Part shown: piece after piece, positions 4,799 through 4,818 of the stretch
Layout: each line of letters starts with the position of its first letter
Position numbering within the stretch: position 1 is the first letter of the stretch
Source: Chlamydiota bacterium
Lineage (GTDB): Bacteria > Chlamydiota > Chlamydiia > Chlamydiales > Rhabdochlamydiaceae
NCBI GenBank assembly: GCA_013287215.1
Contig: JABDEH010000001.1
Span: forward strand, 1 to 55,444
Reading direction: 5' to 3'
DNA length: 55,444 nt
The notes under the pieces: model-generated
What the model was told of the DNA's origin: nothing
Database searches by the model: none
What the model saw: the letters and a program-made list of their open reading frames with translations, nothing else
Translations under genes and position numbers: made by a program

Positions 4799-4818
4799 CA
4801 TGTCGAACGTTCGACATG
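4799..4818. promoter_or_regulatory. perfect 20-bp palindrome catgtcgaacgttcgacatg (copy 1 of 3)
   Basis: Seen directly in the sequence. Related copies occur at 30328-30345 and 43343-43358, all intergenic. Confidence 0.6.

What the first reader, a model, noticed from the sequence alone, without database searches (positions are those of the whole stretch)
4799..4818. Recurrent 18-20 bp palindrome ATGTCGAACGTTCGACAT at three intergenic sites
The palindrome occurs as catgtcgaacgttcgacatg (4799-4818), tgtcgaacgttcgacat (30328-30345) and tgtccaacgttcgacat (43343-43358, one mismatch). All three are intergenic: downstream of the OTU gene, about 260 bp upstream of the rhs start, and between two EG[IV]xLEK-family genes. 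A dyad this long, repeated three times in 55 kb, is unlikely by chance. It looks like the operator of a dimeric regulator acting on island genes, or the terminal repeat of a small mobile element. The core TCGAACGTTCGA does not match the LexA, Fur, HrcA or HspR boxes I know.
Basis: seen in the sequence. Interest (0 to 1): 0.6.

Follow-up and report, generated by a model that had tools for sequence, protein, structure and literature searches.

The report
parS-type ParB sites on chlamydial plasmid
The repeated 16-base palindrome is almost certainly a plasmid "centromere" (parS) sequence, the docking site of a ParB segregation protein. It is an ordinary kind of element in an undescribed sequence variant, and the protein that should bind it is not encoded in this stretch.

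Summary
TGTCGAACGTTCGACA occurs exactly at 4801-4816 and 30328-30343, and with one mismatch at 43343-43358. About 0.12 matches are expected by chance. All three copies are intergenic, and the flanks are unrelated, so this is not a MITE or IS end.

In public genomes and metagenomes, 41 of 213 stretches carrying the exact 16-mer also carry parA/parB. The site sits in fixed places: 30-180 bp upstream of parA, inside parB near codon 175, or just downstream of parB. Related plasmid ParBs use sister palindromes:
- TGTCGGACGTCCGACA
- TGTCGAGCGCTCGACA
- TGTCGGATATCCGACA
- AGTCGGACGTCCGACT

The motif is therefore a 16-bp, CG-centred parS of a ParB subfamily that carries the GERR box of ParB CTPases.

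The window is a fragment of a Chlamydiota conjugative megaplasmid. It encodes no ParA or ParB. By synteny, its own partition module lies just past the right end and is parA plus a small ribbon-helix-helix protein. Related chlamydial plasmids lack the motif.

Best reading: loading sites for a ParB-family dimer encoded elsewhere. The class assignment is strong. Function in this replicon is inferred. It is a new member of a known kind, of modest interest.

The parts
4801..4816 (.). parS-like site 1: exact TGTCGAACGTTCGACA (the palindrome extends to 4799-4818). It is intergenic, 51 bp after the OTU/otubain gene stop (4750) and about 965 bp before the tyrosine integrase gene (5782).
4755..4762 (.). 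Isolated half-site GTTCGACA (one 8-bp parS arm), 39 bp upstream of site 1.
   Evidence: whether it works as an accessory half-site is inference only
30328..30343 (.). parS-like site 2: exact TGTCGAACGTTCGACA. It is intergenic, 262 bp upstream of the rhs start codon (30066, minus strand) and 234 bp downstream of the FkbM-type methyltransferase gene (30577-31527, minus strand).
43343..43358 (.). parS-like site 3: TGTCCAACGTTCGACA. It has one mismatch, at arm position 5, inside the otherwise invariant GTCG block. It lies between two paralogous ~180-aa genes (42710-43255 and 43421-43963, both on the plus strand). Its right arm, TCGACA, doubles as a -35-like hexamer (TCGACA-17-AATAAT, 10 of 12) 63 bp before the 43421 start.
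55226..55444 (-). Context: the 3' end of a primase-helicase gene that runs off the contig. In related plasmids this gene follows parA and a small ribbon-helix-helix (RHH) gene, so the replicon's own partition module should lie just beyond the window.

Best explanation
The three palindromes are parS-type sites: 16-bp, CG-centred inverted repeats. Each 8-bp arm would be read by the helix-turn-helix of one subunit of a ParB-family dimer. In the established ParABS mechanism, ParB binds CTP through its GERR box, closes as a clamp at parS and slides onto neighbouring DNA. The resulting partition complex stimulates a ParA ATPase and positions replicon copies for inheritance. It can also dampen nearby promoters. 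Here the sites sit on a large Chlamydiota conjugative plasmid. No ParB is encoded in the window, so the binder must be encoded on the unassembled rest of the plasmid or on another replicon in the same cell. What is shown: the motif, its excess over chance, its intergenic placement, and its tight link to parAB loci elsewhere. What is inferred: that a matching ParB exists in this host, and that these three copies are used.
For: (1) Excess and placement: 3 copies against 0.12 expected; all intergenic, P about 0.004.
(2) The genome scan and metagenome scan for the exact 16-mer returned 213 stretches. Of these, 41 also carry ParA/ParB homologues. A random 8-kb stretch would do so in well under 1% of cases (my estimate).
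(3) The positions are stereotyped: 30-180 bp upstream of parA in 13 cases (a fourteenth, L081, lies 350 bp upstream), inside parB at about residue 173-179, or 12-280 bp downstream of parB. L024 has two sites upstream of parA and one after parB.
(4) Related ParBs carry sister palindromes in the same places: TGTCGGACGTCCGACA (L106, L107, L109), TGTCGAGCGCTCGACA (L110), AGTCGGACGTCCGACT (Nitrosococcus oceani plasmid A) and TGTCGGATATCCGACA three times (one copy with a mismatch) upstream of parA (Turneriella pTURPA.01).
(5) These ParBs have ParB_N and HTH_ParB domains and the GERR box.
(6) Natural variants at parAB loci differ almost only at the outermost position. This matches published tolerance at position 1-16 in 16-bp, CG-centred plasmid parS sites (PMC5450999).
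(7) Copy 3 keeps the sequence but loses the hairpin, so double-stranded sequence rather than structure is what is conserved.
(8) The setting is a low-copy-type large plasmid, which is where partition sites are expected. The relaxase is 42-55% identical to those of chlamydial plasmids, and a replication module sits at the right end.
Against: - No ParA or ParB is encoded in the 55 kb, by Pfam on nearly all ORFs, by tblastn and by a ParB profile on all ORFs of at least 40 aa.
- By synteny with 75-81%-identical relatives, the plasmid's own partition genes are parA plus a small RHH-like protein, not an HTH ParB. Those relatives lack the motif within +/-10 kb.
- Other chlamydial plasmids (pSn, pPNK, L233, L234) use ParA plus a CT583/UPF0137 protein and also lack the motif.
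- No genome titled as Chlamydiota appeared among the exact hits, so a host chromosomal ParB of this specificity is unlikely.
- The sites are spread over 38.5 kb rather than clustered beside par genes.
- Copy 3 is mutated in the block that is invariant elsewhere.
- The ParB recognition helix does not cleanly predict the parS variant: P0001 and P0002 are 75% identical yet use A/T versus G/C at position 6/11.
Confidence: 0.62

Rival explanations
1. The sites are operators of a ParB-family or other HTH repressor whose main job here is transcriptional control, as with KorB, rather than segregation. The protein would silence or tune accessory genes such as rhs and the ~180-aa paralogue family.
For: All three sites are intergenic and dispersed, like the KorB operators on RK2 (my knowledge). 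Site 3 overlaps a -35-like hexamer 63 bp before a start codon. Site 2 lies 262 bp upstream of rhs. In an alphaproteobacterial ICE-like element, the same 16-mer recurs at least three times around a 712-aa ParB-like gene that has no parA partner. One copy lies just upstream of that gene and another upstream of a DUF932 gene.
Against: Sites 1 and 2 overlap no promoter-like element. No regulator gene lies next to any site. Most linked loci elsewhere are classical parA-parB operons.
Confidence: 0.15
2. The sites are inactive relics or passengers. They would have arrived with horizontally acquired accessory DNA from a replicon that used this parS, and no cognate protein remains in this cell.
For: There is no ParB in the window, and related chlamydial plasmids have neither the motif nor an HTH ParB. 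The sites lie in mosaic accessory regions next to an integrase, an rhs gene and paralogue families. Copy 3 already carries a mutation in the invariant block.
Against: Two copies are perfect and one is near-perfect in three unrelated contexts with unrelated flanks. There is no trace of decayed parA or parB around any site. All three avoid coding sequence. Three independent imports of a bare 16-mer are unlikely.
Confidence: 0.12
3. The sites are centromere or operator sites for the plasmid's own non-ParB partition adaptor. That would be the small RHH protein predicted next to parA, or a CT583-like protein.
For: By synteny this is the partition system the replicon most likely encodes. RHH proteins can bind short palindromes (my knowledge, for example MetJ boxes).
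Against: Relatives with this parA-RHH module have no such palindrome, not even upstream of parA where type Ib centromeres normally lie. Every informative association of this sequence elsewhere is with HTH ParB proteins.
Confidence: 0.06
4. The sites are structural or mobile DNA: ends of a MITE or IS, REP-like hairpins, intrinsic terminators, or core sites for the nearby tyrosine integrase.
For: The same 16-mer is the core of ~40-bp REP-like palindromes in Pelagicoccus mobilis and a Puniceicoccaceae MAG. Site 2 scores as a weak terminator on the minus strand. Site 1 is about 1 kb from an integrase gene.
Against: The flanks are not conserved and there are no extended arms in the window. Copy 3 cannot form the hairpin. 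Sites 1 and 3 have no T-tract. The site is perfectly symmetric and too short for a typical recombinase core, and two of the three sites have no recombinase nearby. There is no Rfam match.
Confidence: 0.05

Closest known systems
Chromosomal parS / ParB (Spo0J), consensus TGTTNCACGTGAAACA
   Same: It is a 16-bp perfect palindrome with a central CG, shares the outer TGT...ACA, and occurs in several copies per replicon. In the related loci one copy lies inside parB, as in B. subtilis spo0J (my knowledge). The partner proteins have ParB_N, HTH_ParB and the GERR box.
   Different: Six of the 16 positions differ (arm positions 4-6). No chromosomal-type ParB is present here, and the replicon is a plasmid.
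Bsr-family parS of Burkholderiales secondary replicons and plasmids (PMC5450999)
   Same: The concept is the same: families of plasmid or chromid ParABS systems whose centromeres are 16-bp palindromes with a central CG. They diverge at a few symmetric positions, and the outermost position tolerates change.
   Different: Bsr sites have a T-rich 5' end. This family has an invariant GTCG/CGAC block. The ParBs found here come from other phyla: Chloroflexota, Entotheonella, Nitrosococcus, Turneriella and various metagenomes.
KorB and its OB operators on IncP plasmid RK2 (TTTAGCSGCTAAA)
   Same: A ParB-family protein binds a short palindrome scattered at many intergenic places on a conjugative plasmid, acting both in partition and as a repressor (my knowledge).
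   Different: The sequence and length differ (13 bp). No KorB-like gene was found here, and only one of the three sites overlaps a promoter-like element.
Noc and its binding sites (NBS)
   Same: A ParB paralogue recognises a dispersed parS-like palindrome with changed specificity (PMC7383237, listed).
   Different: Noc is chromosomal and restricted to Firmicutes. Nothing here suggests a link to nucleoid occlusion.
Chlamydial plasmid partition modules (ParA plus CT583/pGP6-D-family protein, or ParA plus a small RHH protein)
   Same: The host group and plasmid backbone are the same. These are the partition systems actually seen on the relatives of this plasmid.
   Different: None of those relatives carries this palindrome or an HTH ParB.

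Membership tests
parS centromere of a ParABS system | Short (typically 16-bp) inverted repeat with dyad symmetry and a central CG | tested here: met
   The unit is TGTCGAAC|GTTCGACA. Two copies are perfect and one has a single mismatch.
parS centromere of a ParABS system | The same sequence is physically linked to parA-parB operons (upstream of, inside or downstream of them) | tested here: met
   Met in other genomes: 41 of 213 stretches, with stereotyped positions. Sister palindromes occur at related ParB loci.
parS centromere of a ParABS system | A cognate HTH ParB (with a CTP-binding GERR box) is encoded on the same replicon | tested here: inconclusive
   None is present in the 55-kb window. 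The contig is only a fragment of the replicon, because genes run off both ends and the ends do not overlap. Synteny predicts parA plus an RHH protein, not an HTH ParB, just beyond the right end.
parS centromere of a ParABS system | More copies on the replicon than chance gives | tested here: met
   There are 3 copies against 0.12 expected, and 0 of 100 shuffles reached 3.
parS centromere of a ParABS system | Specific ParB binding, CTP-dependent loading, and a contribution to plasmid stability | not testable with these tools
   This needs EMSA, ChIP and plasmid-loss assays.
Transcription-factor or KorB-type operator | The sites overlap promoters of regulated genes, at a consistent distance from start codons | tested here: inconclusive
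   Site 3 overlaps a -35-like hexamer. Sites 1 and 2 overlap none. Distances to the next start codon are about 255-270, 262 and 63 bp.
MITE or IS terminal inverted repeat | Copies share flanking sequence or occur in pairs bounding a conserved segment with target-site duplications | tested here: not met
   There is no similarity outside the 16-18 nt. The copies are 25.5 and 13.0 kb apart with unrelated content.
REP-like extragenic palindrome | A longer imperfect hairpin (30-40 nt) repeated many times | tested here: not met
   Such elements with this core exist in Pelagicoccus and a Puniceicoccaceae MAG. The window copies have no extended arms.
Intrinsic terminator | A stable GC-rich hairpin followed by a U-tract | tested here: not met
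   Only site 2 gives a weak match on the minus strand. Sites 1 and 3 give none. Copy 3 does not fold into the hairpin.

The most novel reading that the evidence does not exclude
These could be 'orphan' parS sites. The plasmid's own partition system would be ParA plus an RHH protein, yet it would keep three docking sites for an HTH ParB encoded by a different replicon in the same cell. The plasmid could then ride on another element's segregation or condensin-loading machinery. Alternatively, that foreign ParB could silence its rhs and effector genes in the manner of KorB. Either would be a first case of ParB-parS biology on plasmids of obligate intracellular Chlamydiota, where only ParA/CT583-type modules are known.
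Probability: 0.15. Interest if true: 0.55.

Novelty: new member of a known kind. Interest (0 to 1): 0.33.

Why it matters
This work gives a concrete, testable identity to an otherwise anonymous repeat. TGTCGAACGTTCGACA, with its 14-bp core GTCGAACGTTCGAC, joins a family of TGTCG-N6-CGACA parS sites. These sites are used by a widespread plasmid-type ParB subfamily that does not appear in the searchable literature.

For annotation, the motif can be used to flag partition loci and replicon membership of contigs in metagenomes.

For this chlamydial plasmid, it predicts that an HTH ParB exists somewhere in the same cell. Every sequenced relative of the plasmid examined here uses ParA with a CT583-type or RHH adaptor. 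If the prediction holds, the plasmid has either two partition systems or cross-talk between replicons in an intracellular bacterium.

The general biology (ParB, parS, CTP clamps) is well known, so the finding is useful rather than surprising.

Tried and rejected
- **Mobile-element ends.** I aligned +/-100 nt around all copies in both orientations. Nothing is shared beyond the palindrome.
- **Partition genes in the window.** I looked with Pfam on about 55 ORFs, tblastn, a ParB profile and ParA phmmer on all ORFs of at least 40 aa, and a low-stringency tblastn of 120 ParBs on +/-1.5 kb around each site. Only the palindrome itself matched. These matches come from parB genes that contain an internal parS.
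- **The host genome.** The genome-contig scan did not return the window's genome or any genome titled Chlamydiota.
- **Extending the contig.** Logan contigs add only 200 bp at each end. The ends do not overlap, so the contig is not a closed circle.
- **The motif on relatives.** It is absent from pSn (132 kb), pPNK (145 kb), four contigs sharing the replication module and two sharing the relaxase.
- **Predicting the parS variant from the ParB recognition helix.** This failed. P0002 has nearly the same helix as P0001 but uses TGTCGGACGTCCGACA.
- **Literature.** No paper holds the 14-mer. The 12-mer core appears only in CpG-oligonucleotide papers, which are irrelevant here. Searches on chlamydial parS were uninformative, and the Livny 2007 survey is not held.
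- **Other checks.** Rfam found nothing. No PadR-, TetR- or recombinase-type regulator gene lies next to any of the sites. The PadR spacing (ATGT-N8-ACAT, my knowledge) does not fit, because the spacing here is N10.

Full report
**1. Observation**

A search for TGTCGAACGTTCGACA with up to three mismatches finds three sites and no others. They lie at 4801-4816 (exact), 30328-30343 (exact) and 43343-43358 (TGTCCAACGTTCGACA, one mismatch). Shuffled sequence gives 0.12 matches on average, and none of 100 shuffles reached three.

Copy 1 is a 20-bp palindrome, and the common unit is the 16-mer plus a 3' T. All three copies lie between ORFs. About 16% of the window is intergenic, so the chance that all three are intergenic is about 0.004. 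A lone half-site, GTTCGACA, sits at 4755-4762.

Alignment of +/-100 nt in both orientations shows conservation only inside the palindrome. The repeat finder extends the family to just 23 nt.

**2. Setting**

Pfam scans of nearly all sizeable ORFs show a mosaic, mobile, host-interaction gene set:
- an OTU/otubain protease with a ubiquitin-interaction motif (3716-4750)
- a tyrosine integrase (5782-7011)
- LRR proteins
- AbiTii
- a YafQ/ParD-like toxin-antitoxin pair
- an Rhs toxin with an Imm11 immunity gene (23951-30066)
- an FkbM methyltransferase
- an SPFH protein
- a MobA/MobL-TraA relaxase-helicase (44181-48737)
- DsbB

The relaxase is 42-43% identical to those of Simkania negevensis pSn and Protochlamydia naegleriophila pPNK. 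It is up to 55% identical to proteins named Chlamydiales or Chlamydiia bacterium, and 42-45% identical to ones named Algichlamydia, Neptunochlamydia and Parachlamydia. Several other genes are shared with pSn and pPNK.

The window is a 55,444-bp contig held by NCBI and JGI. Logan contigs overlap both ends by 200 bp. The ends do not overlap each other, and genes run off both of them. The gene leaving the right end is a DnaB_C helicase fragment. It is 87% identical to the C-terminus of a 781-aa primase-helicase in a related contig.

The window is therefore a fragment of a Chlamydiota conjugative megaplasmid, with its replication module at the right edge. It contains no tRNA and no Rfam family.

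**3. What the palindrome is**

The decisive evidence comes from other genomes. An exact-match scan of one genome per species returned 95 stretches. Pfam and tblastn showed the 16-mer beside parA-parB operons in unrelated lineages:
- L024 has two sites 30 and 89 bp upstream of parA and one 12 bp after parB.
- Candidatus Entotheonella has one site upstream of parA and one inside parB.
- Six Chloroflexota-type loci and one Pseudomonadota MAG (L006, L017, L018, L037, L050, L061, L065, L092) each have a site about 90-180 bp upstream of parA.

It added 28 more stretches with ParA/ParB.

Over both scans, 41 of 213 stretches hold ParA or ParB, and the site positions are stereotyped. Sites lie 30-180 bp upstream of parA, inside parB at the equivalent of residue 173-179, or 12-280 bp downstream of parB. 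A random 8-kb stretch of a bacterial genome would hold a parB well under 1% of the time (my estimate).

These ParBs carry ParB_N and HTH_ParB domains and the GERR box typical of ParB CTPases.

**4. A family of sister sites**

Relatives of the L024 ParB use closely related palindromes in the same positions:

| Locus | Palindrome | Placement |
|---|---|---|
| L106/L107 (ParB 75% identical to L024's) | TGTCGGACGTCCGACA | two upstream of parA, one inside parB, two downstream |
| L109 | TGTCGGACGTCCGACA | one upstream of parA, one inside parB |
| L110 | TGTCGAGCGCTCGACA | inside parB |
| L108 | TGTCGAACGTTCGACA | upstream of parA (1 mismatch) and inside parB |
| Nitrosococcus oceani plasmid A | AGTCGGACGTCCGACT | two copies |
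| Turneriella parva pTURPA.01 | TGTCGGATATCCGACA | three copies upstream of parA, one with a mismatch |

The family formula is TGTCG-N6-CGACA, with an invariant GTCG/CGAC block.

At parAB loci that use the window's variant, natural near-matches differ almost only at the outermost position: 11 of 12 mismatches. This agrees with published work on Burkholderiales plasmid and chromid parS sites. Those are also 16-bp palindromes with a central CG, and they tolerate change at position 1-16 (PMC5450999).

No paper in the searchable library contains the 14-mer core. The 12-mer turns up only as a synthetic CpG oligonucleotide.

**5. Sequence, not structure**

Copy 3 keeps 15 of 16 bases but no longer forms the hairpin. 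Its minimum free energy is -1.8 kcal/mol, worse than shuffled controls, against -7.7 kcal/mol for copy 1. Only site 2 gives a weak terminator-like match. Sites 1 and 3 give none. This fits recognition of double-stranded DNA by a dimer, and argues against a hairpin, terminator or cruciform role.

**6. The missing partner**

No ParA or ParB is detectable in the window, by Pfam, tblastn or profile search of all ORFs of at least 40 aa. There is no decayed parB around any site.

Homologues of the 550-aa protein at 53573-55225 lie in a conserved module in related contigs: parA, a small protein, a primase-helicase, then this protein. The small protein has a C-terminus that looks like a ribbon-helix-helix (RHH) fold. 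That reading is mine, from the sequence. Those contigs have no copy of the motif within +/-10 kb, and the regions upstream of their parA genes show nothing like it.

Other chlamydial relatives pair ParA with a CT583/UPF0137 protein and also lack the motif. These are pSn, pPNK, L233 and L234. No genome titled Chlamydiota was among the exact hits, so a host chromosomal ParB with this specificity is unlikely.

The binder must therefore be encoded on the unassembled part of this plasmid, for instance as a second partition system, or on a co-resident replicon. This is the weakest link in the argument, and it is inference.

**7. Mechanism proposed**

A ParB-family dimer would read the two 8-bp arms. 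It would load as a CTP-dependent clamp, spread a kilobase or so, and form partition complexes that a ParA ATPase positions. This is the established ParABS mechanism; general reviews are listed.

Three sites spread over 38.5 kb would give several loading points on a large replicon. Site 3 overlaps a -35-like hexamer (TCGACA-17-AATAAT), so local repression of the 43421 gene is possible. Copy 3's mismatch falls in the invariant block, so it is probably a weaker site.

**8. Rivals**

- *KorB-like operator.* The dispersed intergenic pattern keeps this reading open. So does an alphaproteobacterial ICE-like element, in which the same 16-mer surrounds a 712-aa ParB-like gene with no parA partner.
- *Relics.* This fits the absent ParB and the mutated copy 3. 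It fits poorly with two perfect copies in three unrelated intergenic contexts.
- *Binding by the plasmid's RHH protein.* Nothing seen in the relatives supports this.
- *Mobile-element ends, REP elements, terminators or recombination sites.* These fail their defining tests (see the membership table).

**9. Verdict**

The motif is a new sequence member of a well-known kind of element. The assignment to the parS class is strong, about 0.9 for the motif in general. That these three copies function in this plasmid is moderately supported, about 0.6.

Interest is modest. The open question is which ParB acts on a chlamydial plasmid whose relatives use other partition adaptors.

Noticed in passing
window 52389-53424 (wider 52141-53430): A tandem array of 6.8 copies of a 151-bp unit (87% matches). 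It contains 14 copies of an 18-nt sub-repeat, AGTGATTAAGAGGGTAGG, at alternating 91- and 60-nt spacing. It lies just downstream of the 550-aa gene of the replication module. It is a candidate iteron array or plasmid origin, but the closest relative tested (L111) has no tandem array at the same place.
   Followed up: partly
window 53573-55444 and beyond; L111-L114: A conserved plasmid replication/partition module in relatives: parA, a 166-182-aa protein with an RHH-like C-terminus, a 781-aa primase-helicase, then a 550-aa protein with no Pfam match. The 550-aa protein has more than 150 homologues at 43-84% identity. The window holds only the last gene and the tail of the helicase.
   Followed up: partly
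L010, L012, L015, L016, L021, L033, L045-L047, L052, L054, L055, L064, L066, L073, L077, L078, L089, L095 (Pelagicoccus mobilis); L013, L022, L029, L032, L035, L039, L053, L056, L068, L082, L086 (Puniceicoccaceae MAG): In two Verrucomicrobiota genomes the same 16-mer is the centre of dozens of ~40-bp REP-like palindromes. The outer arms differ between the genomes: TTGCGCAGTTTCA...TGAAACTGCGCAA against CGTAACAACAAA...TTTGTTGTTACG. The core is conserved while the arms vary, which is unexplained. No ParA or ParB lies nearby.
   Followed up: partly
L030, L034, L002, L007, L026, L036, L070, L080 (Alpha proteobacterium AAP38, Asticcacaulis MAG, Niveispirillum fermenti): A shared ICE- or plasmid-like element carries many exact copies of the 16-mer around a 712-aa ParB-like gene (ParB_N plus HTH_ParB, no parA partner), a DUF932 gene and a DUF1173 gene. 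Its recognition helix is unlike that of the plasmid ParB subfamily. This may be a KorB-like use of the same site.
   Followed up: partly
L003, L108, L115, L118, L120, L121, L125, L133, L138, L144, L156, L160, L166, L168, L176, L185, L198, L200, L205, L222, L227: In this ParB subfamily one parS copy sits inside the parB coding sequence at a fixed place, about residue 173-179, just after the HTH. Sister systems with other parS variants show the same thing. It echoes the parS inside B. subtilis spo0J.
   Followed up: partly
L076 3029-3074 (Planctomycetaceae MAG): Two adjacent copies, one degenerate (TGTCGAACGTTCAT) and one exact, lie 16 bp apart. The gene context was not examined.
   Followed up: no
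DNA repeats D10 and D15 link the copies, and site 3 lies between two of them.
   Followed up: no
window 3716-4750; 12259-13332; 23951-30066; 14343-15865: Eukaryote-directed and conflict genes typical of amoeba-associated chlamydiae: an otubain/OTU protease with a ubiquitin-interaction motif, an LRR protein, an Rhs toxin with a DUF2380-like C-terminus and an Imm11 immunity gene, AbiTii, and a YafQ/ParD-like toxin-antitoxin pair.
   Followed up: no
window ends; L096 1-200; L102: Independent Logan contigs from run SRR8433574 extend exactly 200 bp past each end of the 55,444-bp NCBI/JGI contig and then stop or break. This is probably an assembly or trimming artefact, but the exact symmetry is odd.
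   Followed up: partly
L104/L103 (pPNK 13933, 18265, 20315, 23052, 48628, 61262, 64852): pPNK carries seven copies of a different 16-bp near-palindrome, GCTTCGCCGACGAAGC and its complement. Four (18265, 20315, 23052, 64852) lie inside RHS-annotated CDSs, 48628 in an RHS-associated core-domain CDS, 61262 in an 'RHS repeat protein', and 13933 in the 13877-13979 gap. They probably reflect a conserved coding repeat rather than a binding site.
   Followed up: no
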